Source of the DNA: Bacteroidia bacterium
GTDB lineage: Bacteria > Bacteroidota > Bacteroidia > Flavobacteriales > Schleiferiaceae
Assembly: GCA_030424545.1 (NCBI GenBank)
Contig: JAUHWL010000012.1
Location: 20,315 to 84,314 of the forward strand
Reading direction: 5' to 3'
DNA length: 64,000 nt
The notes under the pieces are model-generated. The model was given only the letters and a program-made list of their open reading frames with translations. It was not told the origin of the DNA and did not search any database. Below are positions 34,460 through 62,601 of the stretch, one piece after another (within the stretch, counting starts at the first letter, position 1; each line of letters starts with the position of its first letter). The translations under genes and the position numbers were made by a program.

Positions 34460-34460
34460 T

Positions 34461-35084: not shown

Positions 35085-35166
35085 GAAATTACTTTACAAT
35101 AGCAATTAAAAAACCTTTTTTAATTGCCTGAGCAGAGCGTTATATTTAAGCCAAAATATATCAAAC

Positions 35167-35937
35167 TTGAAAAATAAAAAAGACATCATAAACAATTGGT
35201 TACCCCGTTATACGGGAAGAACCTTAGAAGATTTTTCTTCATACATCATACTTGTAAATTTTGGAGATTACGTTAGCCGATTTGCAACCCATCATAACGT
35301 AGAAATTGTGGGCAAAGACAAGGCCATGCCAAATGCGAAAGCCGATGGTATAACCATAATTAATTTTGGTATGGGTAGCCCAAACGCTGCCACGGTAATG
35401 GATTTGCTTGGTGCCATAAAGCCCAAGGCGGTTTTGTTTTTAGGTAAATGCGGTGGACTAAAAAAGAAAAATAAAATTGGAGATTTTATCTTGCCTATAG
35501 CGGCCGTACGTGGCGAAGGAACATCAGACGATTATTTTCCGCCAGAGGTTCCTGCGTTGCCTTCTTTTGCGTTGCAAAAAGCCATTTCTACCACCATTAG
35601 AGATTACAACCAAGACTACTGGACGGGCACTGTATACACCACCAACCGCAGGGTGTGGGAGCACGATAACGACTTTAAGAGCTATTTAAAATCCATTAGA
35701 TGTATGGGCATTGATATGGAAACGGCCACCGTTTTTACAACAGCGTTTGCCAATCAAATACCGGCTGGTGCGCTCTTGTTGGTATCAGACCAACCTATGG
35801 TTGCAGAAGGCGTAAAAACTTCGGAAAGTGATAAAAAGGTTACAGACAACTTTGTGGAACTACACATTAAACTGGGCATTGCTTCGCTGAAACAGCTTAT
35901 CAATAATGGAAATACGGTTAAGCATTTGCGGTTTTAA
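35167..35937 (+). CDS. PNP/UDP-1 family nucleoside phosphorylase (AMP nucleosidase-like)
   Basis: 256 aa; the GKCGG / METATVF motifs are consistent with the PNP_UDP_1 fold. Confidence 0.65.
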   Translation: MKNKKDIINNWLPRYTGRTLEDFSSYIILVNFGDYVSRFATHHNVEIVGKDKAMPNAKADGITIINFGMGSPNAATVMDLLGAIKPKAVLFLGKCGGLKKKNKIGDFILPIAAVRGEGTSDDYFPPEVPALPSFALQKAISTTIRDYNQDYWTGTVYTTNRRVWEHDNDFKSYLKSIRCMGIDMETATVFTTAFANQIPAGALLLVSDQPMVAEGVKTSESDKKVTDNFVELHIKLGIASLKQLINNGNTVKHLRF

Positions 35938-35973
35938 CACATAAAAAAACCCGAAGCAATTTGCTTCGGGTTT
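35937..35973. repeat. Copy 1 of a 37-nt direct repeat that is itself a palindromic bidirectional terminator (ACACATAAAAAAACCCGAAGCAATTTGCTTCGGGTTT)
   Basis: Identical to 42658-42694. AAAAAAACCCGAAGCAA / TTGCTTCGGGTTT is a perfect inverted repeat with A- and T-tracts. Confidence 0.75.
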
Positions 35974-36017
35974 CTTCTCTATAGAAAGATAGCATTATAA
36001 AACAATTTCAACACATG

Positions 36018-38345
36018 CTATCTCACCAACTTTATTGTAGCGTTTTCTTGAGCTGTAGAAACACTAACAATATACATTTGGGGTGCTGAGGTATTGGAAA
36101 TTGGAATGTAAAAATCGTTTTTAGTGTCTATATGATTTTCAGAAAAAATTACTTGACCAAGTGAATTGTATAATTGAACATTGGCGTTGGATCCAGCATT
36201 GGCCTTGAACTTTATGATTACGCCTTGCGCAGTATGAGAAAATTGGCAAATGCTTTTTTCTAATTGTAAGTCATCTGGATCTATGATTCCATTGCTGAAA
36301 TGTAAATTAAACCGCTCTACTTCACTACCTTCTTGGTACTCAAATTTATATGGTTTGTTTGTGATTTCATGTAAAATACCAGGTGCTGTTTTTAAATCTT
36401 CAATATAAATATGCCATCCAATTTTTAAAGTTTTTGGATTAACACTTAGACTATAGGTGCCAGTACTGCGCGACCAAAAGCGAACTGGATAAAAGTCATT
36501 TTTCTGAGGTTGGTTGACCGTATTTGTGTATAAAGGGGCAATAATTTCTGTGTTATTTACTTTATAGCTATTTTGAAACCCTATTTGTGGTCGGGTTTTT
36601 CCTGGTTGACTTAAGACATAAGAATCAAACTCGGTATCGTATTGTTTTGTTGCTAAATCATCAAATTTTAAAAGAATGCTATTGGCACTTGTATCTAATA
36701 AATTTAGAGCAATAAGTTCTATTTCATTTGCACCTGTTTTTTGAAATGATTCAGTTGAAAAAACGCGTTGGTCATTTTCAAAAACAAGATATTGATTATT
36801 GCCCGCTGTAGACCATTTTACCCAAAACGCTTGCATTGGTGGTATGTTGGAGGATTGGCCCGGTGCTACATATTGATAATCAATATCTGTTAAGGTCCCA
36901 TCCGCAGTGGTATAAGTCTTTCCTTTATTCCAAATTCTAATATTGTCATACGGAATATTACCGTTGTCATCGCAAAACTCTTGAATGCTTAAGCCACAAG
37001 GATATGGGTTTGCTACTAACGCCCAACCATCCCAGTTGGCTTTGTGGTCTGCTGGTTCATCTGGGTTTGGGCAGCCAATGCCAGTGTAAATTCCTTGAGA
37101 AGCGCCCGCAGAATTTAAGGCATGAGGTGCGCTATGTACATAATCATAAACTAAAGATGCACTAGGTTCATTAAAAATTCCTGTAGCTTTTATAACGCCT
37201 GAAGTGCCGAAATTTTGGCCACCAAGAAATATAGAATAACCTAAAGTGCCACCCATGGCGCTTATGCTGGCTGGGCTGTGCCACTCATGTGGCTCTGTTA
37301 AAGTAGCACCTCCCTCAAATTGAGTAATATTTACGGTTGAAATGTCATTTCCGAAGTTCCCACAATTATCACGAGTAGAAGGGCTTGTGTGATAGGATTT
37401 GTAACTACCATCTACGTTAGCACTTGCCCCCCCAAGGTCTAAATTTTCAATTGATTGTACTGGAAAAGACATGTTTCGCCAACCTTCGTTAGTGCCAGCA
37501 TATTGTTGAATGGTTCCTGATATAGCTGGTCCAATGTATTGAGAATAACCAGTGTTGTCAGAATTCAATACAAATTCTGAAGTGGCAGAATGCGGGTAAT
37601 TAACCGATGCTTGATTAAATGGGCGCATGGTAGCGTTAGAAGCCATATTTAGCGTGAAACCTGATGGTATTTCGAAATAATCAACTTCAACATTTCCAAA
37701 GAGTGTTGCAGAGTTATCGGAAGTTGTTGGGTCGATGATTAACTCTTTTGCGGCATCTGTTTCATTAGGAGCACCATTTGTTCCGTTTCCACCGGTCCAA
37801 ACTCCATCTTTATAAGTAATTATATCATAACCAGAACCAAAAGGAATGAGAACTGGCGAACCATTGTTGTAATTATTCCACTCTTGAGCGGCTGCATTAT
37901 AACCTGGTCCAAGATTTTCATATTCCAGTTTTTGAGTATTATCAACAATGGTAAATTTAAACTCAATTACATCTTGCCAAGCGGTAGTTAATTGGCTTGT
38001 TGGTGGTGAAAAAGTCAACCCGCGGCCAAAAGCTATTTCATTAGGTGCGTTTTGTCCAATTTTTACAAAAGGCACAACGCCAACATCAGTAAAGCCTAAC
38101 CACGCGTGGTTAGCTGCTGGTATATTGTTACTACCATCATTTGGAATCGAAACAGCTAATGGGTTAAATGATAAACCAATAGAAAAGACACCAGAAGTGT
38201 ACGTTGTATTGGCTCGTACTTGAACTTTGACCCAAAAATCACCACCCACAACGCGATCATTTTTGGTAACCACAAGATTTAAGTCATAGTTCTGTCCAAT
38301 TAATAATGCTGGAGTAAAAAGTATTATCAGTAGAATTTTACGCAT
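36018..38345 (-). CDS. Large secreted surface protein with T9SS C-terminal sorting domain
   Basis: Signal peptide MRKILLIILFTPALLIGQ. C-terminal ...VQLYNSLGQVIFSENH...MYIVSVSTAQENATIKLVR resembles a type-A CTD. Confidence 0.75.
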   Translation of the reverse strand: MRKILLIILFTPALLIGQNYDLNLVVTKNDRVVGGDFWVKVQVRANTTYTSGVFSIGLSFNPLAVSIPNDGSNNIPAANHAWLGFTDVGVVPFVKIGQNAPNEIAFGRGLTFSPPTSQLTTAWQDVIEFKFTIVDNTQKLEYENLGPGYNAAAQEWNNYNNGSPVLIPFGSGYDIITYKDGVWTGGNGTNGAPNETDAAKELIIDPTTSDNSATLFGNVEVDYFEIPSGFTLNMASNATMRPFNQASVNYPHSATSEFVLNSDNTGYSQYIGPAISGTIQQYAGTNEGWRNMSFPVQSIENLDLGGASANVDGSYKSYHTSPSTRDNCGNFGNDISTVNITQFEGGATLTEPHEWHSPASISAMGGTLGYSIFLGGQNFGTSGVIKATGIFNEPSASLVYDYVHSAPHALNSAGASQGIYTGIGCPNPDEPADHKANWDGWALVANPYPCGLSIQEFCDDNGNIPYDNIRIWNKGKTYTTADGTLTDIDYQYVAPGQSSNIPPMQAFWVKWSTAGNNQYLVFENDQRVFSTESFQKTGANEIELIALNLLDTSANSILLKFDDLATKQYDTEFDSYVLSQPGKTRPQIGFQNSYKVNNTEIIAPLYTNTVNQPQKNDFYPVRFWSRSTGTYSLSVNPKTLKIGWHIYIEDLKTAPGILHEITNKPYKFEYQEGSEVERFNLHFSNGIIDPDDLQLEKSICQFSHTAQGVIIKFKANAGSNANVQLYNSLGQVIFSENHIDTKNDFYIPISNTSAPQMYIVSVSTAQENATIKLVR

Positions 38346-38368
38346 AGAATTTGGAGTTAAGTTCTGAT

Positions 38369-41300
38369 TTAAGGGAAATTAATTGTAAAAAAGAAGTTTA
38401 AATTAATTAAGCTGGCATCAGTAGCATTTACTACTCCGTCTAAGTATGTGTCGCCAGATAAATACCCACTAAGGAAGAATTGTTCAGCAATGGCATCTAC
38501 GTCTGTTGCATTGATGTTTTGATCGTTGTTGCAATCGCCACCATGTAAAACGTAGTAGTTATTGCCGCCATTTAATACTCTTTTAACACCTCTTGGATTT
38601 CCGCCTGTGGTGTATACATTACTGTCGTCTGTTCTAATGTCCCAAACAGCGGTTCCAGGTGAACCTACAACAGTGTTTAAACTAGCAACGTTTGCATGGT
38701 TTCTATGTACCACAGATACATAATAATTATCTTCAGGTGCAGTAATTGCCACGCCAGCATTACCTGAAACATCCAACGCTTCTCCTGTTGAAGTTAGAAA
38801 ACAGGCTTTCTGGTACAGGACTATACTGGGATCATTTTTATCACGTAGTTGAACTAATATCCAATCTGTAACACTTGGATATGTATCAAAAAAGTCGGCA
38901 GTTACACTCTCTGTACCAGCATAATTCCATGGTGAAGCATTATAAGGTTGGTTGAGTGCGTTTGTAGCTAAAATACTCGAGCTTCCCCCAGTACTTAGGT
39001 GGGTTGTCATTGTTCCCGCAGATGATGTGAAGGGCCCTTCTAAAAAGCACTTAATATCCCAAAGAATGATGTTTTCCTCTACCAACAAGTGTAAAGTGGC
39101 AAAGGTACATGTACCATTGTCGCACACTTCGTAAGGTTGTGCGTAGCTACCTGTAAAGTTGGCGTCCGGTGTAAAAATATAGGCGCCATTAGGCCCAACA
39201 ATTAAACTACCCACTCCTGGGATGACTTGATTTTGAGGTGTAATTGCCATTGGGCCTGTTCCTGTTGTAAAATCATTGATTAGTAAGCCGTCAGCTACAG
39301 CAACTGTTACTTGCTCTCCTTTTTTAGAATAAGACAAATCATCTGAAGCTTGTATTGCATATTCCGAGTTTGGATTTGCGACCGTAATAATTACTTGAGC
39401 ATCATCACACAAGCCTGAAGGTGTTTCACACACCTGGTAAATTACTGTATCCATGCCATAAAAGCCAGCATTTGGTGTATATTCTAACTGTCCGCTTCCA
39501 TTAATAACAGCCGTTCCATTTGCTGCACCTGTTAAAATACTCGGTGTGCTAAGGCTTCCGCCATTCCCAGATGAGGCATCGTTTAATAAAATACTTACGG
39601 TTCCTGTAGCTGGCGTAGCTTCGTCTCCATCCAACAGTAAGACATCGTCTAGCGCAACGGGAGGTCTATTCGCAATTGGCTTGTCTTGTACAACTATTTT
39701 TAGACTTTCATCTTTACAAACGGGTGTTGGTAAAGTTGCATCGCAAATGGTTGTTGTAAAATAATAAGTACCAGAAGTGCTGGTTAGAAACGAATATGTG
39801 CCATCACTATTAAGCACTGGTAAATCACCACTTGGGTTGCCAGATTGTGCTACTACATTACTATATGTTGAACCTGCCTCAACAAAGTCATTTGTATTTA
39901 CATTTCCATTTATGGTACTGCCAAGCAGTCCAATAGAAACATCTGGCTTAGTGCTCATAACATTTATTATAAACTCAACATATGGGCGGCAAGTTATGTC
40001 TGCGGGCAAACCAGTAGGAATTAGATAGATGTAATAAGTGCCTTCTGGAGAGAAATATTTTCTGTTTGGGGTGATGCTGGCAAGAGAAGTTACCTCATCT
40101 GCGGTAGAAGAATCTATAACTGTACCTCCGCTATACATTGCAGAGCCAGTTTGTTGGCTTGTAAAAAGAACCCATTTAAGTGCTTTATCAAGTTTTAATG
40201 TAGATCCAATTGTAAGAGGACTTATTGTTTCACCAATAAATACATTTTGAGTAGCGCTCTCACCGGGTGCAAGCGACAGTGTTGGACAACAGTTTAACCC
40301 CCCACCTCCATTGGCTAAAGAAGTTTCTACAAAGGCGTAATAAATATTGAGAGTTGAGAGTAACTGTGCATTTACCAACCCTCCAAAGCTTATTTTTACC
40401 TCATCAAAATCTAAACTTGTGTAAAACCCAACAGCTCTTTTTGTGGTTTGTTGATTACCCAACAATCCTAGCAACTCTAAATCAAGTAAGTTACTGGCAC
40501 TCTGTGATTCTTGTTGTGTTCCGTCTAAAAATGTCGTGACCGTTATGTTCTCGAGCAAGTCTAAAACCAAGAGGCCCAATGTTCCAGATTCTACAACAAA
40601 CCCTGTTAACGAACCTCCAGGGTATGTATTGGCTGGATCTTGTACAGACAGTGAAAGTGATCCTAAAAGGCCAGCCGTAAGTACCATTTCAGCGGCATCT
40701 GAAGTGTCAATATTTGTGACAAAATCTGCATTTTCTATCTGACAACCAACACATGCCGTTCCAACTCCAGTTTCTTGAAAGTTGACAAACGCAGGGGTTT
40801 CTGGATTTGTTAGAATTATGATCTCTTCGCATTGCAGGGTTAAGGCACATGTACGCGTTGTAACCATAGAGTATACATTTATTGTATTAAGAACACCTAC
40901 AAGTGGTGTGAATGATATTCTCACTTCGTCAAAGGCCTGTGTACTTACAAAGCCAACTGTTTGCTTACCTGTTGTTCCATACAACAGCCCTGTACTTACA
41001 TCAGCTAGGCCTGAAGCGCCAGAGGCCGACTCAATTAACGTTCCATTGCTATACGTTGCAACCGTAAGTTGATCCAACACATTAACTCCTAAAATGCCTG
41101 GTTTCTCAATCACAAAACCAGCGAACGTATTTGCCGGATATTCATCTACCGCATTTGCTACAGGTAATGTTACCGTAGATGCTACGCCAGCAACCGAATA
41201 CATTTGGGCAAAATTTGATGTATCGTTATCAATTACACTATCTGGGTTGGTAACACCTGCATCAACGTCAAGCACTCCAGATACACCTAAAGCCTGCGTA

Positions 41301-41986
41301 TTTATGTACAAAGGGTAATCTGGTACGTTTTGTAGGGTAGGTGTATTACATTCTAAAAACTCTGTGCCATCAACCAAAGGCGCAGCACAAAACTTTTGGA
41401 TTACCGGATAGTATACTCTATAAGAACTCAAGAGACCTAGCCCGAACGTAATTCTTATTTCATCGAATGGCTGTGTAGCTATAAACCCACCTGTAATTCG
41501 CGATTGAGATAGTAGGCCAACTCCAATAGCGGATAAATTTGAACCACTTTCTGACTGTATTAGAACGCCATTATTATAGGTTGCAATCGTTACATTATTT
41601 AACAACCCTAACAAATCAAGATTTAGCAAAGTGCTTTCGGTAAAGTTAAATCCAACAAAAAAGGGGGCTGTAGCGGTGGCGTTATACGTATTCGTGGGAT
41701 CTTCTACGGTTGCATACCCTGAACTCAATAATGTGCTTATTGAATGATAATTATTTAAATCAGAGTCTAGCACGTTGCCTGAGCATGGAGGTTGAAGAAA
41801 GCCTCCACAATTGCTTGCATCAAATGTTAACCCAGCTGTAACATTGCTTATCCATGGTGTGGGCTCGTTACAACTAAGCGCAGTACTTTGACTAAAGGCT
41901 GCTGTGCTTATAACGATTGTAATTGACGCAATTAAAAGTTTAAAAATAAAATTCATTTGGCAACTATTGTTTGTGCTTTCAATCAA
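38369..41986 (-). CDS. Giant secreted adhesin-like protein with triplicated ~90-aa module, Ig/cadherin-like segment and dockerin-like C-terminus
   Basis: Signal peptide; the true start is probably the internal MNFIFKLL at ~41956. Three paralogous modules (…ATYNNGVLIQSESGSNL…FDEIRITFG / …ATYSNGTLIESASGASGL…FDEVRISF / …TTFLDGTQQESQSASNL…FDEVKISFG). The C-terminus is DCNNDQNINATDVDAIAEQF…DTYLDGVVNATDASLINL, a duplicated calcium-binding-like repeat. Confidence 0.7.
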   Translation of the reverse strand: MIESTNNSCQMNFIFKLLIASITIVISTAAFSQSTALSCNEPTPWISNVTAGLTFDASNCGGFLQPPCSGNVLDSDLNNYHSISTLLSSGYATVEDPTNTYNATATAPFFVGFNFTESTLLNLDLLGLLNNVTIATYNNGVLIQSESGSNLSAIGVGLLSQSRITGGFIATQPFDEIRITFGLGLLSSYRVYYPVIQKFCAAPLVDGTEFLECNTPTLQNVPDYPLYINTQALGVSGVLDVDAGVTNPDSVIDNDTSNFAQMYSVAGVASTVTLPVANAVDEYPANTFAGFVIEKPGILGVNVLDQLTVATYSNGTLIESASGASGLADVSTGLLYGTTGKQTVGFVSTQAFDEVRISFTPLVGVLNTINVYSMVTTRTCALTLQCEEIIILTNPETPAFVNFQETGVGTACVGCQIENADFVTNIDTSDAAEMVLTAGLLGSLSLSVQDPANTYPGGSLTGFVVESGTLGLLVLDLLENITVTTFLDGTQQESQSASNLLDLELLGLLGNQQTTKRAVGFYTSLDFDEVKISFGGLVNAQLLSTLNIYYAFVETSLANGGGGLNCCPTLSLAPGESATQNVFIGETISPLTIGSTLKLDKALKWVLFTSQQTGSAMYSGGTVIDSSTADEVTSLASITPNRKYFSPEGTYYIYLIPTGLPADITCRPYVEFIINVMSTKPDVSIGLLGSTINGNVNTNDFVEAGSTYSNVVAQSGNPSGDLPVLNSDGTYSFLTSTSGTYYFTTTICDATLPTPVCKDESLKIVVQDKPIANRPPVALDDVLLLDGDEATPATGTVSILLNDASSGNGGSLSTPSILTGAANGTAVINGSGQLEYTPNAGFYGMDTVIYQVCETPSGLCDDAQVIITVANPNSEYAIQASDDLSYSKKGEQVTVAVADGLLINDFTTGTGPMAITPQNQVIPGVGSLIVGPNGAYIFTPDANFTGSYAQPYEVCDNGTCTFATLHLLVEENIILWDIKCFLEGPFTSSAGTMTTHLSTGGSSSILATNALNQPYNASPWNYAGTESVTADFFDTYPSVTDWILVQLRDKNDPSIVLYQKACFLTSTGEALDVSGNAGVAITAPEDNYYVSVVHRNHANVASLNTVVGSPGTAVWDIRTDDSNVYTTGGNPRGVKRVLNGGNNYYVLHGGDCNNDQNINATDVDAIAEQFFLSGYLSGDTYLDGVVNATDASLINLNFFFTINFP

Positions 41987-42229
41987 TAACGATTAACTTT
42001 AAAACTAGATCCTTTAAATCGAAAGGATTGAACGAAGCACTAGTTAGAGTGGCAAAATTGGCCATAATAAAATCTACTTGATACAACATATTTGATGTAT
42101 TAGTTAAAATACCTAGTGTCTAACTTTATGAAATGTATAGATAGTATCACCGATCAACTTATGTACCTGATGGATAGTTTGTTAAATTGAAAGGATAAAT
42201 GAAAGTGTTATTGATTTTAATTTATCTAG

Positions 42230-42451
42230 ATGAAATGTGGTGTTATGAAAGACGATCAGATAAAAAAATTAGGAAAAAGAATTAAAGAATTAAGGAAACA
42301 AAAAGGTTTAACCCAATTTGATTTGGCGAGTTTTATCAATAAAGACCAGCAAGCACTTCAGAGAATAGAAACAGGAAAAGTAAATCCGTCTTATTATTAT
42401 CTTGTTTTATTATGTAGAGGGTTAGACATAACAATGGAAGATATGTTTTAA
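42230..42451 (+). CDS. XRE-family HTH transcriptional regulator
   Basis: LGKRIKELRKQKGLTQFDLASFINKDQQALQRIETGK is a classic Cro/C1-type HTH. Confidence 0.7.
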   Translation: MKCGVMKDDQIKKLGKRIKELRKQKGLTQFDLASFINKDQQALQRIETGKVNPSYYYLVLLCRGLDITMEDMF

Positions 42452-42657
42452 AATATAGATATTCATTTTTCAGAATGTGAAAAAAAAAGTGGTGAGATCG
42501 ACAATCAACAATTTTCTGGGAAAGGATTTTAATAAAAGCTTGTTGTTTAGATTGCGCTGCAACGGGCTTTGTTAAGTTCATACTTGTTAGCAGGTAAAGA
42601 CGATAAAAACCTATTCTTGCTGCCAGTATTCGTAAAATTTAAGTTTTATAAAAATAT

Positions 42658-42694
42658 ACACATAAAAAAACCCGAAGCAATTTGCTTCGGGTTT
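42658..42694. repeat. Copy 2 of the 37-nt direct repeat / palindromic terminator
   Basis: Identical over 37/37 nt to 35937-35973; flanks diverge immediately outside. Confidence 0.75.
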
Positions 42695-42923
42695 TTCTGT
42701 TGCCCCACAAGGATAAATTCATTGTCGTAAATCGGCTGTATGTTTCTGTAATTAAGACACATATAGTGATTTGTGTTAGCTATTTAATAGTATAGGCAGA
42801 CATTAAAAGATTTTAAGAGACGGTTATTCGGGTCACCTTTCGGGTCACGGTATTAATTGTACGGATTTAGGTTATTAGAATAGGTTTTCCACAACTTTTT
42901 GATGAATCCGGCATATAATACAT

Positions 42924-44159
42924 ATGAGGAATATACATTTTTATCTACCCCGAAAGAATATGCAGCTTAATACGATTCGTTTTAAGTTTACTTTAAACTA
43001 CCAAACCATTAGTGGTAGTACAGGACTTCGGATTGAATCTAAGAATTGGGATTTTAAAAGAGCAAGAGCCAAACCTTCCTTTAAACATGCATCACAGTAT
43101 AACACGGCTTTATCTGCTATTGATGAAGAAATAAAAAGTGTATTAGTTGACTTACAATTGAAAAACAACTTAAGCAAGGAGGAATTCTACTTAGCGTATC
43201 GTTCAGATAAAGAAAAGCTAAGCTTGGGAATGAGCATATTTACATTCACAAATTACTACATGATACCGAATAAAAGAAAAGAGGGCAAAAGTGAAGAAAC
43301 AATCAAAAGTTATAAGAATAGTTTAGCTAGGCTAAGGCAATATTGTTTTTTTCGAAAAATGGACGAACATAGCCTTACATTGGAGAGAATTATGGACTAT
43401 TCTTTTTATCTTGATTATTTAGGTTATCTAAATCTAGAATGCGGATTCATGCTTAATTATCAAGGATCATTGATAAAACATTTAAAGACAACAATTAATC
43501 ATGCAAAGGATTTGGGTATTCATAGTAAAAATTTGTCAAAAAAATATAAGAAGCCCTCTGAAACGATTGAACCATTAATCTTGGAAAAATCGGAGTTAGC
43601 GGCACTTGAAACCTGTGAGGGGTTATCTAGTATTGAATCAGCAGCACGAGATTGGTTTCTTATTTCATGTAAAACAGGACTGCGTATTAGTGATTTTCTT
43701 GACTTGAATAAAGCAAACATTAATTTGGAGCGAAACATTATTTCATTACGAACTGATAAAAACTCAAATAAAATAATAGAAATACCAATTTCTAATTCAA
43801 TCCATAAAGTTTTGGAACGAAATGGAGGGGGTCTTCCTCAAAAAATGTTAGATCAAAAATTCAATTTAAATATTAAGAAGGTTTGCCAAAAAGCGAAAAT
43901 TAATTCTAAAGTTATTATTGAGAGAAAGATTAAGGGTAAAATTCAATCAAAAGAAGTTTTTAAATATTTAAAAATTTCAGCTCATTGCGGTAGGCGAACT
44001 TTTGCTACCCATGCTTTTTTGGATGGCCTATTAGATCTTCCAGAGTTAATGCTTATTACTGGACATTCAGATTTAAAAACATTAATGCTTTATATCAAGG
44101 TAGATAATAAAAAGGCTGCAATCAAAATGCAAGCTAATATGGATAAATTGAATTGGTAA
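42924..44159 (+). CDS. Tyrosine-type site-specific recombinase (phage integrase family)
   Basis: C-terminal catalytic region with R...HxxRxxF (AHCGRRTFATHAF) and LITGHSDLKTLMLYIKV, which contains the Tyr nucleophile. The start may instead be the internal ATG at ~42960. Confidence 0.85.
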   Translation: MRNIHFYLPRKNMQLNTIRFKFTLNYQTISGSTGLRIESKNWDFKRARAKPSFKHASQYNTALSAIDEEIKSVLVDLQLKNNLSKEEFYLAYRSDKEKLSLGMSIFTFTNYYMIPNKRKEGKSEETIKSYKNSLARLRQYCFFRKMDEHSLTLERIMDYSFYLDYLGYLNLECGFMLNYQGSLIKHLKTTINHAKDLGIHSKNLSKKYKKPSETIEPLILEKSELAALETCEGLSSIESAARDWFLISCKTGLRISDFLDLNKANINLERNIISLRTDKNSNKIIEIPISNSIHKVLERNGGGLPQKMLDQKFNLNIKKVCQKAKINSKVIIERKIKGKIQSKEVFKYLKISAHCGRRTFATHAFLDGLLDLPELMLITGHSDLKTLMLYIKVDNKKAAIKMQANMDKLNW

Positions 44160-44314: not shown

Positions 44315-45646
44315 TTGAAAAACATTAGGCAAGTTCTGGTATTTGTCTGTAATTCAAATAAAAGGGAACGAGAATTTGTCAACTCTGCTATTCAGATAAG
44401 TAATAGTAGATATAGAAAAAAGGCAATAAGACTTCATCGGAAGCTTTGTGACTTAGGGTGTTTGGATAATGGGGTAAGTTTAAAAACTCAAAATTTCAGG
44501 TTTTTAAGTTCAGACGATCGGACAAAGTGTTCAGCATTAATCAGAAAGAGTTATTTGGCTCTGAAAGCAACGCAAGGGTTTTATACAAATCCTGAAGATA
44601 AGTCAGAATATCAAAGGCAGTTTTTATCATTGTCAATCCGACAGATGCAATATGAGCAGAAATATTCTGAAACATTGCTTAGCACTCTATACCGAGAACA
44701 TTCAAAGGTGATTTCTGGAATGCCAATATATGAGGCAATTCAAAATTTGGAATTAAATCAACAAGAAGGCAATGATTATCTTAGTAGAGTTGAGTCGTCT
44801 CTCAAAAAGTTGGAAAGGGAGGTGAGTATTGGAGAGTTGTTGTCCTATGATGAAGCATTTAAGCTAAGATATTCAATATTCAATTTAGATTTGTCAGCCA
44901 TCATTGATACTTTCAATGATTCGAAGGTCAAAAAGTCTAGGTCATTTAAGGTTCTTTCAGAATTAGTAAAAAGTGGTGTTTTTCCATCTTCTAAGCATTT
45001 AAACAAAAAGTGCATTGTATATGGCGGAATATTTCACTTACTCTCTGTATCGGAAATTCAAACGATTTTTTGGTATTATCAATTGTTAAACAATGGAACT
45101 ATTGATTCCGACAAATTGCTAATTTACGTGAATGACGAAAGTCTATCTGTCAGTCAGCTTCCGTTAGTTTATTCGGTTTTTTCGGAGGATATGTATTGTA
45201 TTACAAAATTGGGTAAAGCGCATTTTAATTTTTGGATAAAGAAGGAAAATGCGTTAAAAATTTCAATAGCAAGCCAAGTTTTATTTAATGTGGTTTCAGC
45301 GTTTCTAGAACCTTTTAGTTCCTTTTTAGCGGGAAAAGCATCGCGATTGGGGAAATGGTATTTTATTGAAATAACGCTAGAGATAGTAGTTTTATTAAAT
45401 AAAGGAGTAGAGGAATTAGCTGAATCAAAAATTGAAGTATTTCGTAAAGCGCTAGATAGAGTCGAAATGGATATTGCACTTAGAAATCTGCATAAGCAGG
45501 TTCAGCGAAGATTGCACCAAATGGTGATGGGGTCAATTAACAAAATGAACCTAATACAATCCATTGAAGAGCTATTTACGAATCACCATAAGTATCAAAT
45601 CCATGAAAGATTGGTTAAATTTATTTTGAGTTACGTGATGAAATAG
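44315..45646 (+). CDS. hypothetical protein (island cargo)
   Basis: 443-aa ORF with AT-rich codon usage; no motif recognised. Confidence 0.45.
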   Translation: MKNIRQVLVFVCNSNKREREFVNSAIQISNSRYRKKAIRLHRKLCDLGCLDNGVSLKTQNFRFLSSDDRTKCSALIRKSYLALKATQGFYTNPEDKSEYQRQFLSLSIRQMQYEQKYSETLLSTLYREHSKVISGMPIYEAIQNLELNQQEGNDYLSRVESSLKKLEREVSIGELLSYDEAFKLRYSIFNLDLSAIIDTFNDSKVKKSRSFKVLSELVKSGVFPSSKHLNKKCIVYGGIFHLLSVSEIQTIFWYYQLLNNGTIDSDKLLIYVNDESLSVSQLPLVYSVFSEDMYCITKLGKAHFNFWIKKENALKISIASQVLFNVVSAFLEPFSSFLAGKASRLGKWYFIEITLEIVVLLNKGVEELAESKIEVFRKALDRVEMDIALRNLHKQVQRRLHQMVMGSINKMNLIQSIEELFTNHHKYQIHERLVKFILSYVMK

Positions 45647-45798
45647 ACAGATTCTGAGAAGTTTTTTGTATCAGTAGATCAATTAAATGCGCATCTATTG
45701 TCCTGAAACAGTCGAAAGTTTCCATGGGGTTTTACAGAGTAGTGAATATCTATGCCGCTCAAACCTTATAGATAAATTTTGATTAAAACCATTTTCTC

Positions 45799-46230
45799 AT
45801 GAAGAATCTAATTTTAGCCATTGTAGCTATTGTGTTTTTGCATATAAATCTAAAAGCTCAAGTACAGGATACATTTCACTTTGCTGTAGAATTAATTAAC
45901 CCTGTCGTCAGCAGCAATGGAGATACTTCATATACTTTCAAATGCGTCATTGATGCTGATGATAGTTTGCAAGTTTCAGCTGTACAATTTGATATTGGAA
46001 CATATCCCGGAGATAATAGTGTTGCCAGTCAGCTATTTGTAGTTGGTCAAAATTATGGGTTACCCAACGGATATTCCGTAACTACCGCCACAAATGAAAT
46101 AACACTAGGGCTAGGAATCTTAGATGTGGGGTTATATCACTACAAAGTTCGGTTGCAGTTTTTAAATGGTAGCAATTCTCGTGATTTAGTTTACAATGCC
46201 GCAACTGGGCAATACACATTTTTGCCATGA
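45799..46230 (+). CDS. small secreted protein
   Basis: Signal peptide MKNLILAIVAIVFLHINLKAQ. Overlaps the next gene by 4 nt, typical of an operon. Confidence 0.5.
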   Translation: MKNLILAIVAIVFLHINLKAQVQDTFHFAVELINPVVSSNGDTSYTFKCVIDADDSLQVSAVQFDIGTYPGDNSVASQLFVVGQNYGLPNGYSVTTATNEITLGLGILDVGLYHYKVRLQFLNGSNSRDLVYNAATGQYTFLP

Positions 46231-47159
46231 AAAAAGTTGTCTTTATCATAGTTTCAATTTGGGTGGTACTAAGTGTAAAAGGCCAAGTTCCCATCAATCA
46301 AAAAACTGTTACGTTATCTCCCTCAAAGGATGCAATGGTTTGGTTAAAACACGGGGATGATGTGTTTAAAAATACGAACTATGGGTTGAATGATCATTTG
46401 AGAATAATTGCAGGTACACATGGAGGGGCATTGTCATTTTATCGCACATTCATGGAGTTTGATTTGTCAAGCATTCCTCAAAATGCAGTTGTAACCGATG
46501 TGAAACTGTATTTGTACGCGCAGGGCGACCATTCTCAAACGAGTGGAAGCAATGAAAGCCGGTTATATGCGCTTAGTACAAGTTGGTCTGAAAGTACAAT
46601 AACATGGGAGAACTCGCCCAAGGAAGGTGATGCCGATGGTTCAAGTTTGCTAATTCCAGCAAGTAATACAGGAGGAGTTAATGATCCAAATAAAGATTAC
46701 ATCGTTGATGTTACCGAATTTTTCAATGAATACAGGACCAGCAACGCATTTTCATACTTCATTAAGTTAGAAACAGAGGTAAAGTATAGAAAATTGACAT
46801 TTTATTCAAAAGACTATGCCACCGTTTCTAAAAGGCCAAAATTGGAAGTTACATATACAGTTCCATTTGTAGAGCTATTGCCAGAGCTTTCAAGCGATTT
46901 TATAAAGCTTAAAGGTGATGTTCTTTATATTAAGTATGATGAAGAGGAGGTTCCATCTAGCATATTAAACTATAGAATTTTAGATTTTTTTCAGGATGAA
47001 TTATCGGGTTTGCCTACTATATCAAGTGTTTTACCAGGCCATAATCTAATAGCGATAGACTTAGCGAGTGTTAGCTTGAGTAATGGGGAATTTTACATTT
47101 TAGAGGTAACAGATTCTCATGGTGAGAAAAAATATTTACGATTTAAAAAAATCATTTAG
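46227..47159 (+). CDS. secreted protein with SW-E-TW-N-P motif (possible DNRLRE-type domain)
   Basis: Signal peptide plus LYALSTSWSESTITWENSPKEG. Family assignment is tentative. Confidence 0.45.
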   Translation: MKKVVFIIVSIWVVLSVKGQVPINQKTVTLSPSKDAMVWLKHGDDVFKNTNYGLNDHLRIIAGTHGGALSFYRTFMEFDLSSIPQNAVVTDVKLYLYAQGDHSQTSGSNESRLYALSTSWSESTITWENSPKEGDADGSSLLIPASNTGGVNDPNKDYIVDVTEFFNEYRTSNAFSYFIKLETEVKYRKLTFYSKDYATVSKRPKLEVTYTVPFVELLPELSSDFIKLKGDVLYIKYDEEEVPSSILNYRILDFFQDELSGLPTISSVLPGHNLIAIDLASVSLSNGEFYILEVTDSHGEKKYLRFKKII

Positions 47160-47163
47160 CAGT

Positions 47164-47688
47164 ATGAAAATTTCACACATAGTCTTAGGCGTATTGATTG
47201 GTGTTGCGCTCACTTTATCAGGTGTTGCTATGTATAAAGCAACAACCGTCTCAGAGGTGATGTATGTTGACGTTCCCAAACTTTTCAACTCATTTGATTT
47301 AAAGAAGGATCTTAGTGTAAAGTTAGAAGGAGTCATGACGAGGAGAAATGAAATAATAGACAGTCTTCAAACCGAGCTTAAATTGCTAGAAAACAATCTT
47401 AGACATGAACAAGGCAGTGATCAGATAATGCAGGCTTATATAAAAAAGAAAGAAGAATTGGCTGTACATCAAAACAGGTTTGCAGAGCTAAACGCACAAG
47501 ATGCGCAAAAATATGACGAGCAGATTTATACTCAAATCAACCAATATATATCAGAGTATGGAAAAGAACAGAAATGCAGATTTATCCTTGGGGCTAACGG
47601 AAATGGCTCTATGCTCTATGCCAATCAGGACAACGATATTACTGATGAAGTCATAGCCTATGCGAATTTTAAATTTAATGGAGAATGA
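47164..47688 (+). CDS. OmpH/Skp-like periplasmic chaperone
   Basis: N-terminal TM/signal (MKISHIVLGVLIGVALTLSG), then a long coiled-coil region and a C-terminal KCRFILGANGNGSMLYANQD resembling the OmpH C-terminus. Start chosen at 47164 so the gene does not overlap its upstream neighbour. Confidence 0.55.
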   Translation: MKISHIVLGVLIGVALTLSGVAMYKATTVSEVMYVDVPKLFNSFDLKKDLSVKLEGVMTRRNEIIDSLQTELKLLENNLRHEQGSDQIMQAYIKKKEELAVHQNRFAELNAQDAQKYDEQIYTQINQYISEYGKEQKCRFILGANGNGSMLYANQDNDITDEVIAYANFKFNGE

Positions 47689-48245
47689 AACGTCTATTAG
47701 TTATGTTTTTGGTTGTTCAACTTCTTGCTTGCAGTCAATCTGATAAACCTGTTAGTGATGTTGAGTATTTGGCTTGGATGGAAAATGAAGAAAATGGTTT
47801 CTTTCAACAGAAAACGATTGAAAACATAACCTTTAGCTTATTCAGGCAAACCTCTACCTATAGAACATTAAAATCAACAGATGAGCAGCTAGGAGAGCAG
47901 TTTGTTCTGCGCATAAGCCCAAAAGAGCGAAACGCTCAAAATGTATTAGAGCAACATGCCACAAGTACTGAAGAGTATTTTAGTTTACTTCAATACTTCA
48001 ATACCGCATTTAGAACTCAAATTGAACTTGTTGATTTAGAAAATAGCACAGCATTGCCCATTGCATACATGAACATTCCTAATTATAGGACTGCCAATTA
48101 TTTAGAGTTCGTTTTTGCGTTTAATCAATTGCCACTTGAAAGCGAGTTCAAAATAGTCATAAATGACAATGTATTTGATTCAGGTCCAGTAGTATTTCGT
48201 TTTAAAAACACAACCCCGCCTTACTTAATCGCCAACGCAAAATGA
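47685..48245 (+). CDS. lipoprotein
   Basis: Lipobox LLAC-S (MKRLLVMFLVVQLLACSQ). Its stop overlaps the start of the SpvB-domain gene. Confidence 0.55.
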   Translation: MKRLLVMFLVVQLLACSQSDKPVSDVEYLAWMENEENGFFQQKTIENITFSLFRQTSTYRTLKSTDEQLGEQFVLRISPKERNAQNVLEQHATSTEEYFSLLQYFNTAFRTQIELVDLENSTALPIAYMNIPNYRTANYLEFVFAFNQLPLESEFKIVINDNVFDSGPVVFRFKNTTPPYLIANAK

Positions 48246-51200
48246 ATATGATTTCAAAAATTAGAAAAGGAAAATTAATACGTCTGTTAGCCGCATTTAT
48301 TGCCATAAATATGCTAGTAGAGATAGTGAGTCCGACAACTGCATTTGCACTCACAACTGGCCCGTCTCAGCCTGAAGTACAGTCATTTGAGCCAGTGAGC
48401 ACAAGTGATATGGTTAATTTATTTTCTGGAGATTTTACTTATAATATTCCACTTTTTGAATTACCCGGTCCAGATGGAGGGTATCCATTTAATTTAGCTT
48501 ACCACTCAGGCATCGGCATGGAGCAAGAAGCATCATGGGTTGGATTGGGATGGAATATTAATCCAGGAGCACTGACCCGACAGATGCGAGGTGTACCCGA
48601 TGAGTTTAAAGGTGATGAGTACAAGTATGAGATGGATATGAAGTCATCTCAAACATTTGGAATCAATGCTTCAGCCAGTATGGAAATTTGGGGGTCAGAT
48701 TTAAGTAAGGCTACAGGAGGAGAAGGAAATGGAGCCTTATCTCTTTCAACAAGTCTTTATTATAACAACTATAGAGGATTTGGGTATTCCCTTGGTTCAG
48801 GGGTTAGTTTTAGAGCAGCGCACACTTCCATTGGATTGAATATGGATTCACAAGGAGGGACATCAGTGAGTATGGACTTCAGTGCTTCGCATGAACTGAG
48901 TTCCAAAAGTAATACGAGCATGAATGTAGGTGTTGGAATAAGTCTTAGTTCAAAAGCAGGTTTACAGGGAAGTTTGAGCTCATCATTAACAAAAAAATCC
49001 ACATTGACAGGGGAGAACGCAGCTGGAAAGAAGATTACTAATGATGTCACTAAATCATTAGGAACTAGTTCAACATTAAGCAGTGCTACGTTAGCTTATT
49101 CAAGTTATAACCCAATGGCTACAAGAGCGAATCATTTAAATGTAAGTTTCAGGACAGGGGGTGATTTGGCTGGAGCATTTACCAATTTTTCGATAGGAGG
49201 TTTTTTTAATACTACATATGCAAAAGATAAAAACTCTTCAAGAAAAGCCTACGGATTATTTTATGCACAGAAAAGAACAAAAGATGGCTTACAAGATTTT
49301 AATCGAGAGCGCGAAAAATCAGTGCACAGAGACGATAAAACATTTCCAATTCCTGTATCTACGCCAGACTTTTATTCGTTTACAGGGCAAGGAATAGGAG
49401 GAATGTTCCGCACGTTCAGGTCAGATATAGGAAATTTTCACGACCCATATACTAAATCAACTACAGATGGCGGGAGTTTTGGTTTTGAAGTAGGCCCAGG
49501 ACAACCTAACCATATTGGAGTTACGGGCACATATACTCATGGGCAAAGTGAAGTAGGAAAATGGAATGTAAATGGTGGCGCATATGATTTCAACAATTAT
49601 GGAGAAGAAAGAAATGATAAAGAGATTTCTTGGTTTGCTTTGAATGGAGAGATGGTTGCCATGGAGAAAGATGAATTAGATTGGATTGGTGGAGAAAAAG
49701 CTGTGACAGCAAAAATGCAGAAAAAAGGCTCAACTGAATATGTACCTGTTGCGAACACATTTATTGATAAATCGAAAAATCAAATTACGCTATCCAATCA
49801 AAACAGGCAAGAAGCAGGCTTCAACAAAAGGAAACGCAGAGGAACATTGATTCAACAAGTAACCAATGGATTGTTGCTTGATGGAAACAATGAATTAATG
49901 TCAGAGTACAAAGTGGGCTATTATAGTAGCTCAGTTGATGTTTCAGATGCGTTAGATGTCTTGGCCGCTACAGAAACATCTTATTTAAGAGGGACTAAAA
50001 AGTCGCATCACTTTGCGGGTTTTTCAGTTCACCAACCCAATGGCCAGCGCTACGTTTATGGCATTCCCGCTTATAATAATAAACAAATAGAAAGTTCATT
50101 TAGTGTTCCAGATGAGGATGTTGATTGTATACCAAGAGTAGATGTGCCTATAGATGGTAGTTCTTTGAAATATAAACATAACCTGACCAATGAGTTTTTG
50201 ATGCGCACGGAAATTCCGGAATATGCACATTCATACTTGCTAACAGGTATTTTAGGAAATGACTATATCGATGTGTTAGACGATGGGATAACTGATGATG
50301 ATTATGGTTATTGGGTAAAATTCAACTACGCAAAAATTCATGACAATTTTAACTGGCGTATGCCCTTTAAAGGTGCTCGATACAATAAAGGGAGCTACTC
50401 CCTAAAAGAAGACAATAAAGGAAGTTTTATTTATGGAGAAAAAGAGATCTGGTACTTAACTTCAGTAGAGACCAGAACGCACGTTGCCGTTTTCGAATTA
50501 AACGATCGCATGGATGGCATAGAGGCCCCAGGGGAACTAGCGGGATTAAGTGCTTCTTTATCTGGGTTGAGCAAGCTAAAAAAAATAAAGAGCATAAAGC
50601 TATACTCCAAGTTAGCATATCAAAATGCTGTTTCTCAAAGTACGCTATCATCGCTAAACCCTATTCAAACCATTCATTTTGAGTATGATTATTCGTTATG
50701 TGAAGGAGTAGAGAATAATAATGGTCAAACCGACCCAAATGATGGAGACCCTATTAGCAATGATGGAGGAAAACTAACACTTAAAAAGGTGTACATGACC
50801 TATGAAGGAAATCAACGCGGAGCGCTCAGTCCATATGAATTCAACTATAGCAATGTAAATCCAGACTATGATGAGTTTGCCATGGATAGGTGGGGAAACT
50901 ATAAACAAAGCAACAATGAGGGAGATTATTGTTCAAATATTGACATGCCTTATGTCAGCCAGTATGATGTGAGTACAGGATATACAAAAACAGAGTTGGA
51001 AAACTTTAGAGAAAATGAAGTAGATGACTATGCCAATGCATGGCATTTAAATGAAATCATAACCCCCACAGGAGGTAAAATATCAATCGAATATGAGAGT
51101 GATGATTACAGCTACGTTCAGCACCGCAAGGCAACACAGATGTTTCAAATAAACGGTTTAAAAAAGGACGCCAATGATGGTTTAACTACTTATACATACG

Positions 51201-54424: not shown

Positions 54425-54425
54425 T

Positions 54426-55124
54426 ATGAAAAGGCTACAATCACATATGTTGGCGCTGCTATGGGCAATAATTAGTCTGTTATATGTTCCAGAGGCTGAT
54501 GCGCAAGACTTTAAAGCTGATATGCAATATTTAACTGAGCATGTTATGGCAAATAAGAGTGTTAACATCAAAGCAAGCATAGAGATATTTGATGCCAACG
54601 ATAGGCCAATTCAACAGCAAACATATAGCCTGCTAAAAAGAGATCAAGAATTCAAATTTACCACCAACTCTATGGCAATGCTCTATAACAAAGATGTAAT
54701 GCTCAGCATAAATCATGTAGATAAGAAGATATTTATTTCTCAGAGAAGTGCGGAAAAAGAACAAAAACAGCATATCCCAGAATGGGATATGGGGATTGAT
54801 AGTTTGGTGCACACCCCTTTTCCGAGTGTAGTTTATCATCACACAAGTATTGGGCATACCTATGTTTTAACGCCTTCAGCCGAAACAGGCATAAAAGAAA
54901 TTGTTATCGTGTTAAGTAATAACAAACGGAGTATCCATTCTGTAGAATATTTCTTCAAACCAGATGGAGTCTATGAGTATAGCAAGATTGTTATTGAATA
55001 TGAAAAATTTGATACACGCCCCATAGCGGCAAAAGAATTTTCCATCGCCAATTATGTGCTTCAGAAAAAGGGAAAGCAAGTTCCGGCAAGTGCTTATGGA
55101 GACTATGAAATCACCCTGTTTTAA
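54426..55124 (+). CDS. secreted hypothetical protein between the TcB-like and RHS genes
   Basis: Signal peptide MKRLQSHMLALLWAIISLLYVPEADAQ. Begins 1 nt after the upstream stop. Confidence 0.5.
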   Translation: MKRLQSHMLALLWAIISLLYVPEADAQDFKADMQYLTEHVMANKSVNIKASIEIFDANDRPIQQQTYSLLKRDQEFKFTTNSMAMLYNKDVMLSINHVDKKIFISQRSAEKEQKQHIPEWDMGIDSLVHTPFPSVVYHHTSIGHTYVLTPSAETGIKEIVIVLSNNKRSIHSVEYFFKPDGVYEYSKIVIEYEKFDTRPIAAKEFSIANYVLQKKGKQVPASAYGDYEITLF

Positions 55125-55143
55125 TCGCCAAACCATTTGATTT

Positions 55144-62598: not shown

Positions 62599-62601
62599 AT
62601 A

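What the first reader, a model, noticed from the sequence alone, without database searches (positions are those of the whole stretch)
35937..42694. Identical 37-nt direct repeats of a palindromic terminator bracket a 6.7-kb segment encoding two giant surface proteins and an HTH regulator
ACACATAAAAAAACCCGAAGCAATTTGCTTCGGGTTT occurs at 35937-35973, overlapping the stop codon of the nucleoside phosphorylase gene. It occurs again, 37/37 nt identical, at 42658-42694, with unrelated sequence on either side. The bracketed DNA holds a T9SS-CTD surface protein, a 1205-aa adhesin and an XRE regulator. A tyrosine integrase gene starts 230 nt after the second copy. This fits a duplicated attachment site from site-specific insertion at the 3' end/terminator of the phosphorylase gene. 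It could even be two tandem islands sharing one att: element 1 = 35974-42657, and element 2 starting with the integrase. Exact repeats of this length are unlikely by chance.
Basis: seen in the sequence. Interest (0 to 1): 0.6.

Follow-up and report, generated by a model that had tools for sequence, protein, structure and literature searches.

The report
Attachment-site repeat flanking stacked genomic islands
Two identical 37-base copies of a terminator hairpin bracket a 6.7-kb block of accessory surface-protein genes, and the second copy sits at the end of an integrase-carrying island, which most likely marks two foreign DNA blocks inserted side by side at one site, a common and well-known arrangement.

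Summary
ACACATAAAAAAACCCGAAGCAATTTGCTTCGGGTTT occurs exactly twice, at 35937-35973 and 42658-42694, with unrelated flanks on both sides.

Copy 1 begins at the last base of the stop codon of an AMP nucleosidase gene. It is a strong bidirectional terminator.

Copy 2 lies 230 nt before an intact Bacteroidota-type tyrosine integrase gene. Homology to a related integrase element (54% identical integrase) starts just after copy 2. That element carries a different terminator-like hairpin at the same position.

The bracketed 775-aa protein has only 7 non-self homologs in the database, at most 46% identical. The nucleosidase has thousands, up to 88% identical. The segment therefore looks accessory.

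Best reading (confidence about 0.5): the 37-mer is the core of an attachment site. An integrase-less island lies in tandem with an integrase island of at least 21 kb that carries Rhs toxin genes.

Not shown: an empty site, a third copy, or excision. The closest relatives are not syntenic here, and the rest of the source contig was out of reach.

This is a new member of a known kind and of modest interest.

The parts
35167..35937 (+). AMP nucleosidase gene (256 aa). This is the proposed target gene. Its stop codon overlaps the first base of copy 1, so the coding sequence is untouched.
   Evidence: NCBIfam NF005500, 424.6 bits. Pfam PNP_UDP_1. More than 8000 homologs, the best non-self at 88%.
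35937..35973 (.). Copy 1 of the 37-mer. It is a bidirectional terminator hairpin between the converging nucleosidase and 775-aa genes, and the proposed att copy next to the target gene.
   Evidence: Fold of -18.2 (+ strand) and -23.9 (- strand) kcal/mol. Terminator scan hit.
36018..38345 (-). 775-aa secreted protein with a T9SS type A C-terminal sorting domain. Cargo of the bracketed segment.
   Evidence: TIGR04183, 26.2 bits against a cutoff of 23. Only 7 non-self homologs, at most 46% identical. GC3 of 0.27.
38369..41986 (-). 1205-aa protein with Big_9 and cadherin-like domains (adhesin-like). Cargo of the bracketed segment.
   Evidence: Pfam Big_9 at 5e-20 and Cadherin_5 at 1e-16. GC3 of 0.29.
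42230..42451 (+). 73-aa XRE-family HTH protein. It ends 206 nt before copy 2 and has a low GC content of 0.29.
   Evidence: Pfam HTH_3 at 1.2e-12. The same gene was called in an independent assembly. GC.
42658..42694 (.). Copy 2 of the 37-mer. It is the proposed att copy at the left end of the integrase island.
   Evidence: Fold of -20.6 and -23.9 kcal/mol.
42695..42757 (+). Conserved element end directly after copy 2 (CCCACAAGGAT at 42704-42714, then ATTGTC and TGTAAT). It is shared with the homologous element in L021-L024.
   Evidence: Alignment. Local alignment score 37 against 14.5 +/- 2.3 in shuffles. Motif positions.
42827..42848 (+). Two direct TTCGGGTCAC copies 12 nt apart, 76-97 nt before the integrase start. 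They are candidate arm-type integrase-binding sites or an operator (inference).
   Evidence: the only two exact copies in the window. The motif also lies 65-74 nt before the 66% identical integrase in L020.
42924..44159 (+). Tyrosine integrase, 411 aa, with the domain order Arm-DNA-bind_5, Phage_int_SAM_5, Phage_integrase.
   Evidence: Pfam. Catalytic R, H-x-x-R, H and Y positions are invariant among 4 homologs, and the N-terminus is conserved.
44315..63446 (+). Island cargo, all on the + strand: 443-aa and 143-aa proteins of unknown function, a CBM96 protein, an OmpH-like protein, 186-aa, 2060-aa (weak DUF6531) and 232-aa proteins, a 2484-aa Rhs/YD-repeat protein (55144-62598), and 111-aa and 170-aa proteins.
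   Evidence: The cargo is not shared with the homologous integrase loci.
63588..64000 (+). Start of an orphan Rhs C-terminal cassette. It repeats 61318-61520 at 88% identity, and the island continues past the end of the window.
   Evidence: Repeat family D1. Sequence. Unitigs end at 63617.

Best explanation
The 37-mer is the shared core of an attachment site for the tyrosine integrase encoded at 42924-44159. The site is the bidirectional terminator immediately after the AMP nucleosidase gene.

Two blocks of accessory DNA sit there in tandem:
- A 6.7-kb block without an integrase (35974-42657), carrying two secreted or surface proteins and an XRE regulator.
- To its right, an integrase island of at least 21 kb that starts at copy 2 and carries an Rhs toxin locus.

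Each integration between an element copy and a chromosomal copy of the core regenerates the hairpin on both sides. The nucleosidase gene and the 775-aa gene therefore keep a terminator, and each new copy can serve as a further landing site. This is accretion, as described for cis-mobilizable elements next to integrative elements.

Shown:
- The exact repeat with unrelated flanks.
- The integrase element's conserved end starting just after copy 2.
- An intact integrase.
- The sparse, distant homolog distribution of the bracketed 775-aa protein, which points to accessory DNA.

Inferred:
- That recombination happens inside the 37-mer.
- That the 6.7-kb block arrived by, or can leave by, that recombination.
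- That a third copy closes the integrase island beyond the window.
For: - Exact 37/37 repeat with 0 expected by chance. Flanks are unrelated on both sides.
- DNA from just after copy 2 is homologous to the DNA right of a hairpin in L021-L024, whose integrase is 54% identical. DNA to the left is not.
- That homologous element has a different terminator-like hairpin (-16.2 kcal/mol) at a similar distance before its integrase: about 210-245 nt, against 230-266 nt here.
- A k=31 unitig from an independent sample (L024) starts right at that hairpin. This is what a repeated or polymorphic junction would give.
- The integrase catalytic positions are invariant.
- The TTCGGGTCAC pair before the integrase is shared with the 66% homolog.
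- GC falls to 0.31 in the stretch that includes copy 2. GC3 of the segment genes is 0.23-0.29, against 0.32-0.44 for the six genes to the left.
- The 775-aa protein has 7 non-self homologs, at most 46% identical. The nucleosidase has more than 8000, up to 88%.
- Relatives have neither the segment nor the hairpin after the nucleosidase gene.
- Precedents: a proven 53-bp att repeat of a Riemerella (Flavobacteriaceae) island that contains what looks to me like a terminator-type hairpin (PMC6764341); the accretion and CIME model (PMC5704250); three palindromic repeats at the 3' end of bacA giving modular excision of PAISt (PMC4057263).
Against: - No empty site, no excised junction and no third copy could be examined.
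- The 6.7-kb block has no recombinase, excisionase or transfer gene.
- Its copy-1 flank lacks the conserved element-end sequence, and it has no TTCGGGTCAC motif.
- Its two large genes have an overall GC of 0.38-0.40, close to the host's. Low homolog counts are also typical of fast-evolving surface proteins.
- No conjugation or mobilisation gene was seen in the 21 kb of the integrase island inside the window.
- All four read sets that carry the nucleosidase unitig also appear to carry both blocks, so no presence/absence polymorphism was seen.
Confidence: 0.5

Rival explanations
1. Only the integrase island is a mobile element. The 6.7-kb segment is resident, fast-evolving chromosomal DNA. The island's own copy of the terminator core landed at, or was copied to, the site after the XRE gene, for example by secondary-site integration or gene conversion. 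The pair of repeats therefore does not delimit an element.
For: The segment has no mobility genes, and its copy-1 flank lacks the conserved element end. The overall GC of its two large genes is host-like. Copy 1 and copy 2 could each work as an ordinary terminator for neighbouring genes.
Against: It needs an extra, unspecified event to produce 37 identical bases with sharp edges 6.7 kb apart. The segment's 775-aa protein has no homolog above 46% identity anywhere in the database. None of the relatives' nucleosidase loci examined carries the segment. GC3 of the segment genes is below that of the adjacent core genes.
Confidence: 0.2
2. The segment and the integrase island form one composite element with an internal copy of the recombination site. 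The element moves as a whole or in modules, as PAISt does.
For: The XRE gene has the same low GC as the integrase and lies just across copy 2 from it. An XRE-integrase pair is a common module in mobile elements (my own knowledge). [quoted passage not shown]
Against: This is indistinguishable from tandem accretion without the distal end or excision products. Nothing left of the hairpin is conserved with the homologous element.
Confidence: 0.15
3. The 37-mer is a duplicated or dispersed palindromic terminator unit, similar to REP or MITE elements, and has nothing to do with the integrase.
For: The inner 27-nt hairpin occurs as an ordinary terminator in four unrelated Bacteroidota genomes with no integrase or nucleosidase nearby. 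Such hairpins therefore recur.
Against: There are only two copies in 64 kb. None of the four outside hits has the ACACATAAAA extension. Copy 2 coincides with the homology boundary of an integrase element, and the related element has its own hairpin at the same position.
Confidence: 0.08
4. The order of the blocks is an assembly artefact caused by the 37-nt repeat.
For: In k=31 graphs of two read sets the three pieces are separate unitigs that break inside the 37-mer, so those graphs cannot order them.
Against: A 37-nt repeat is shorter than normal reads and normal assembly k-mers (my own knowledge). With two copies, the only alternative path makes the segment a free circle, which would itself prove mobility. 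All unitigs are 100% identical to the window.
Confidence: 0.05

Closest known systems
CIME-ICE tandem accretion (ICESt1/ICESt3 and CIMEs at the 3' end of fda in Streptococcus thermophilus; reviewed in PMC5704250)
   Same: An integrase-less block is flanked by the same att repeat as a neighbouring integrase-bearing element. Both sit at the 3' end of a housekeeping gene, and the repeat is regenerated at each junction (the fda details are from my own knowledge).
   Different: No conjugation or mobilisation genes were seen here. The phylum and integrase family differ. The integrase-less block lies next to the target gene rather than distal to it. Excision has not been demonstrated.
PAISt of Streptomyces turgidiscabies (PMC4057263)
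   Same: A tyrosine integrase with a palindromic recombination site at the 3' end of a protein-coding gene. One internal and two flanking direct repeats delimit modules.
   Different: PAISt uses an 8-bp palindrome and is a very large conjugative island. Here the identity is 37 nt and is a full terminator hairpin, and only two copies are visible.
Riemerella anatipestifer 10K genomic island (PMC6764341)
   Same: [quoted passage not shown] The perfect direct repeat (53 bp) contains what I read as a terminator-like hairpin. Integration and excision were shown experimentally.
   Different: Its target is a tRNA-Arg gene and it is a single element, not a tandem array. No sequence comparison with its integrase was made here.
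Bacteroides NBU1/NBU2 and CTnDOT-type integrases (from my own knowledge)
   Same: The domain architecture (N-terminal arm-binding, SAM-like and catalytic domains), and an integrase gene within a few hundred bases of one element end.
   Different: Those elements target tRNA 3' ends or short degenerate sites and carry mobilisation genes. Membership of those families was not tested here.

Membership tests
Site-specifically integrated genomic island (tyrosine integrase, att direct repeats) | Identical direct repeats at both ends of the element | tested here: inconclusive
   Met for the 6.7-kb segment. For the integrase island only the left end lies in the window, and the distal end is beyond 64000.
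Site-specifically integrated genomic island (tyrosine integrase, att direct repeats) | Integrase gene inside the element, next to one att copy | tested here: met
   Met for the island right of copy 2: the integrase starts 230 nt after the copy. Not met for the 6.7-kb segment, which has no recombinase.
Site-specifically integrated genomic island (tyrosine integrase, att direct repeats) | Integrase retains the catalytic R, H-x-x-R, H/W and Y residues | tested here: met
   R242, H342, R345, H369 and Y378 (numbering of the 399-aa form) are invariant in the 4-sequence alignment. The catalytic lysine was not assigned.
Site-specifically integrated genomic island (tyrosine integrase, att direct repeats) | Unoccupied attB in related genomes | tested here: inconclusive
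   Relatives with 83-88% identical nucleosidase (L010, L013, L014, L018) have different neighbours and no such hairpin. They are too distant to serve as empty sites.
Site-specifically integrated genomic island (tyrosine integrase, att direct repeats) | Excised circular form or attP junction | not testable with these tools
   Raw reads cannot be searched. The k=31 unitigs are compatible with both the integrated and the circular form.
Cis-mobilizable element (CIME) accreted to an integrative element | Flanked by att sites of the neighbouring element while lacking integration and transfer genes | tested here: met
   The structural criterion is met: identical 37-mers flank the segment, and no recombinase or transfer gene lies in 35974-42657. 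That the 37-mer functions as an att site is inferred, not shown.
Cis-mobilizable element (CIME) accreted to an integrative element | The neighbour is a conjugative or mobilizable element (relaxase, coupling protein, T4SS) | tested here: inconclusive
   No such Pfam domains among the ORFs of at least 80 aa between 42924 and 63446. The island continues beyond the window.
Dispersed palindromic repeat (REP/MITE-like) | Many copies scattered through the genome | tested here: not met
   Two copies in 64 kb, even allowing 3 mismatches. The full 37-mer is absent from the four outside hits to the 27-mer and from the metagenome scan. The rest of the source genome was not available.
Intrinsic (rho-independent) terminator | G+C-rich stem-loop followed by a T run, placed after a gene | tested here: met
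   A 12-16 bp stem at -18 to -24 kcal/mol, with a T run on both strands. Copy 1 lies between converging genes. Copy 2 lies 206 nt after the XRE gene.
Integron (IntI, attI, attC cassettes) | IntI-type integrase and an array of small cassettes ending in attC sites | tested here: not met
   The integron-integrase model scores 30 bits against a cutoff of 265. There is one 6.7-kb three-gene block with genes on both strands. The homologous loci have a single hairpin in 4.6-5.6 kb upstream.

The most novel reading that the evidence does not exclude
This subfamily of Bacteroidota tyrosine integrases may use a whole bidirectional terminator palindrome as its recombination core. The hairpin arms would act as the inverted core-binding sites, for example AAACCCGAAG / CAATTTG / CTTCGGGTTT. 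Different lineages would have adopted different terminators: the window and L021 have unrelated hairpins followed by the same CCCACAAGGAT...ATTGTC arm. Every insertion would then rebuild a terminator on both sides and create a new landing pad. Integrase-less gene blocks could be stacked next to the integrase, giving a terminator-based gene-capture platform.
Probability: 0.1. Interest if true: 0.55.

Novelty: new member of a known kind. Interest (0 to 1): 0.3.

Why it matters
If correct, this locus shows how an uncultured Flavobacteriales-like bacterium acquires surface adhesins and Rhs toxin cassettes at one terminator-based landing site without damaging the adjacent housekeeping gene. It also gives a concrete 37-bp site and integrase pair that could be tested as a genetic tool for Bacteroidota. 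It adds an example to a well-described phenomenon (att duplication and tandem accretion of islands) and does not reveal a new mechanism.

Tried and rejected
- **Empty site through relatives.** I ran an exact-protein look-up of the nucleosidase and of four homologs at 83-86% identity. Neighbourhoods were not conserved and no hairpin was present, so this was uninformative.
- **Third copy or other contexts of the repeat.** The 27-mer scan of 185,579 species genomes gave four ordinary terminators with no integrase or nucleosidase nearby. The 37-mer scan of JGI metagenomes gave nothing, and the viral contigs gave nothing.
- **Extending beyond the window.** Look-up of the last window ORF returned only 2-kb unitigs ending at 63617.
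- **More integrase loci.** The metagenome scan with a 4-sequence profile found no relative. The viral scan found one 25% identical, irrelevant hit. A scan for the conserved arm motif in viral contigs found nothing.
- **Hidden homology beyond the 37 nt, or a decayed copy of the nucleosidase 3' end before copy 2.** Rejected by alignment against shuffles.
- **Arm-site motif inside the 6.7-kb segment.** Absent.
- **A known RNA gene as integration target.** There is no tRNA or tmRNA in the window. Rfam gave only sub-threshold hits to the hairpin itself.
- **An 81-aa ORF left of the hairpin in L021.** It looked by eye like an integrase C-terminal remnant. Neither Pfam nor BLASTP supported this, so I dropped it.


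Full report
**Observation**

The 37-mer ACACATAAAAAAACCCGAAGCAATTTGCTTCGGGTTT is present exactly twice in the window, at 35937-35973 and 42658-42694. Both copies are on the + strand and no further match appears even with three mismatches allowed. None was expected in shuffled sequence (read).

The repeat has sharp edges. The 80 nt to the left and the 80 nt to the right of the two copies align no better than shuffled sequence (p about 0.93 on each side).

The inner 27 nt form a perfect palindrome. As RNA it folds at -18 to -24 kcal/mol on either strand, with an A run on one side and a T run on the other. It has the structure of a bidirectional intrinsic terminator.

**Surroundings**

- **Left of copy 1: ordinary Bacteroidota chromosome.** The genes are truA, nusA, infB, the Bat aerotolerance operon, nadB, nadA, lpxD, a flotillin, and then a 256-aa AMP nucleosidase at 35167-35937. 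The last base of its stop codon is the first base of copy 1.
- **Between the copies: three genes.**
  - A 775-aa protein with a T9SS type A sorting domain (36018-38345, - strand).
  - A 1205-aa Big_9/cadherin-like protein (38369-41986, - strand).
  - A 73-aa XRE protein, which is on the + strand at 42230-42451 and is not the minus-strand ORF.
- **Terminator placement.** Copy 1 sits between converging genes, and copy 2 lies 206 nt after the XRE gene. Each copy could work as a terminator where it is.
- **Right of copy 2: an integrase island.** A 411-aa tyrosine integrase starts 230 nt after copy 2, with the domains Arm-DNA-bind_5, Phage_int_SAM_5 and Phage_integrase. A run of + strand genes follows, including 2060-aa and 2484-aa Rhs-type proteins and the start of an orphan Rhs cassette that runs off the window.
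- **Other features.** There is no tRNA, tmRNA or known RNA family at either copy.

**Evidence that copy 2 is the end of an integrase element**

The integrase has few relatives: one at 100%, then 66%, 54% and 44% identity. They share the N-terminus MRNIHFYLPR, which fixes the start at 42924. The catalytic R, H-x-x-R, H and Y positions are invariant.

In four loci encoding the 54% homolog (L021-L024), a different terminator-like hairpin (AAAAAAAGCCTTACATTTCTGTAAGGCTTT, -16.2 kcal/mol) lies about 210-245 nt before the integrase. It is followed by CCCACAAGGAT...ATTGTC...TGTAAT. The same sequence follows copy 2 in the window, at 42704 onward.

The alignment of the two right flanks scores 37 against 14.5 +/- 2.3 for shuffles, with 0 of 2000 shuffles reaching it. 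Nothing to the left of the hairpins is alike, and the right flank of copy 1 is not like either. Homology between the two elements therefore begins just after the hairpin. This is where an element end would be if the hairpin were the att core.

One unitig from an independent sample (L024) starts at that hairpin. This is compatible with a repeated or polymorphic junction, though low coverage could also explain it.

Two TTCGGGTCAC copies lie 76-97 nt before the window integrase and are the only exact copies in the window. One copy sits at a similar distance before the 66% homolog. The 54% homolog has different direct repeats (GATAGCCA-like) in the same place. I read these as candidate arm-type sites, which is an inference.

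The cargo after the integrase is not shared between the loci. The conserved module is the integrase plus the short arm.

**Is the bracketed segment foreign?**

- GC content falls to 0.31 from about 42.0 kb, covering the XRE gene, copy 2 and the integrase.
- GC3 is 0.27, 0.29 and 0.23 for the three segment genes, against 0.32-0.44 for the six genes to the left. The overall GC of the two large genes is host-like.
- The 775-aa protein has only seven non-self homologs in 5.8 billion proteins, the best at 46% identity. The nucleosidase has more than 8000, up to 88%.
- In four relatives' nucleosidase loci the segment is absent. Synteny on both sides is also absent, and none has the hairpin.

These relatives show that the segment is not conserved at this position, but they cannot serve as empty sites.

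**Independent data**

Unitigs from public read sets (ERR3428543 and ERR3420974) are 100% identical to the window. Three of them have an end inside the 37-mer, at 33905-35966 (right end), 35944-42687 (both ends) and 42665 onward (left end). A k=31 graph must break there.

This confirms that the sequences are real. It cannot order the pieces or show polymorphism. The nucleosidase piece was seen in four samples, and both other pieces also appear in four (two plus two variants).

**What could not be done**

The source contig is an 84,314-nt NCBI record, but only short unitigs were served. The distal end of the island, and therefore a third copy, could not be examined. The 37-mer is absent from the JGI metagenome collection and from viral contigs.

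The 27-nt hairpin alone occurs in four other Bacteroidota genomes as an ordinary terminator. Those copies lack the ACACATAAAA extension and have no integrase or nucleosidase nearby. A palindrome has only about 13 independent positions, so such recurrences are expected among hundreds of millions of terminators (my estimate). They do not explain a 37/37 match within one genome.

**Interpretation**

The most economical account is site-specific recombination at a terminator-shaped att core just after the nucleosidase gene. Two accessory blocks are stacked there: an integrase-less block, and then an integrase island carrying Rhs toxins.

This is the structure described as accretion of a cis-mobilizable element with an integrative element (PMC5704250). 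It also parallels two other cases:
- The internal and flanking palindromic repeats of PAISt at the 3' end of bacA (PMC4057263).
- The 53-bp att repeat of a Riemerella island, which contains what looks to me like a terminator-type hairpin (PMC6764341).

I give this reading about 0.5. The main rivals are:
- The segment is resident DNA and only the right-hand island is mobile (0.2).
- The two blocks form one composite element with an internal site (0.15).
- The repeat is a recombination-independent terminator duplicate (0.08).
- The block order is an assembly artefact (0.05).

**Verdict**

The phenomenon is a familiar one in a poorly studied lineage, so I class it as a new member of a known kind, with interest about 0.3.

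The most novel reading still open is that this integrase subfamily uses whole terminator palindromes as recombination cores and stacks integrase-less gene blocks at them. I give it about 0.1.

Noticed in passing
L018:3922-4170 and L018:5554-5804 (GCA_020049755.1, JAHZTO010007877.1): In a relative whose nucleosidase is 86% identical, a block is repeated 1632 nt downstream at 73-88% identity. The block comprises the last 80 nt of the gene, the intergenic region and the first 45 nt of the next gene. It brackets two genes, and no integrase gene was called in the 10 kb downstream. The two downstream proteins share only their first 14 residues. The 3' end of this gene may be a recurrent insertion or duplication site.
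   Followed up: partly
window 61318-61520 and 63588-63790: A 203-nt direct repeat at 88% identity. The conserved stretch before the C-terminal tip of the 2484-aa Rhs protein recurs after two small ORFs (111 and 170 aa). This fits an orphan Rhs toxin/immunity cassette array, and it continues past the window end.
   Followed up: partly
window 42606-42617 and 42877-42888: A perfect 12-nt inverted repeat (AAAACCTATTCT), 34 nt at 71% when extended, lies on either side of copy 2. One arm is in the end of the 6.7-kb segment and the other is just before the integrase gene. These are the only exact copies in the window. Their role is unknown; they could be protein-binding sites.
   Followed up: partly
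L021:5633-5690, L024:1-60: The element with the 54% identical integrase has its own, unrelated terminator-like hairpin at the same relative position. A k=31 unitig from another sample begins at it. GATAGCCA-like direct repeats replace the TTCGGGTCAC pair before the integrase.
   Followed up: partly
L002:6135-6161, L003:4781-4807, L005:6838-6864: The same 27-nt hairpin sits in one conserved context in three Flavobacteriaceae MAGs (UBA3356, Zunongwangia, Marixanthomonas). It is apparently an orthologous terminator unrelated to this locus.
   Followed up: partly
window 46227-48245 and 48242-55124: Between the integrase and the Rhs gene lie a CBM96 protein, an OmpH-like chaperone, and 186-aa, 2060-aa (weak DUF6531) and 232-aa proteins, all co-oriented and tightly packed. 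This may be a delivery or export module for the Rhs toxin. No family match explains it.
   Followed up: no
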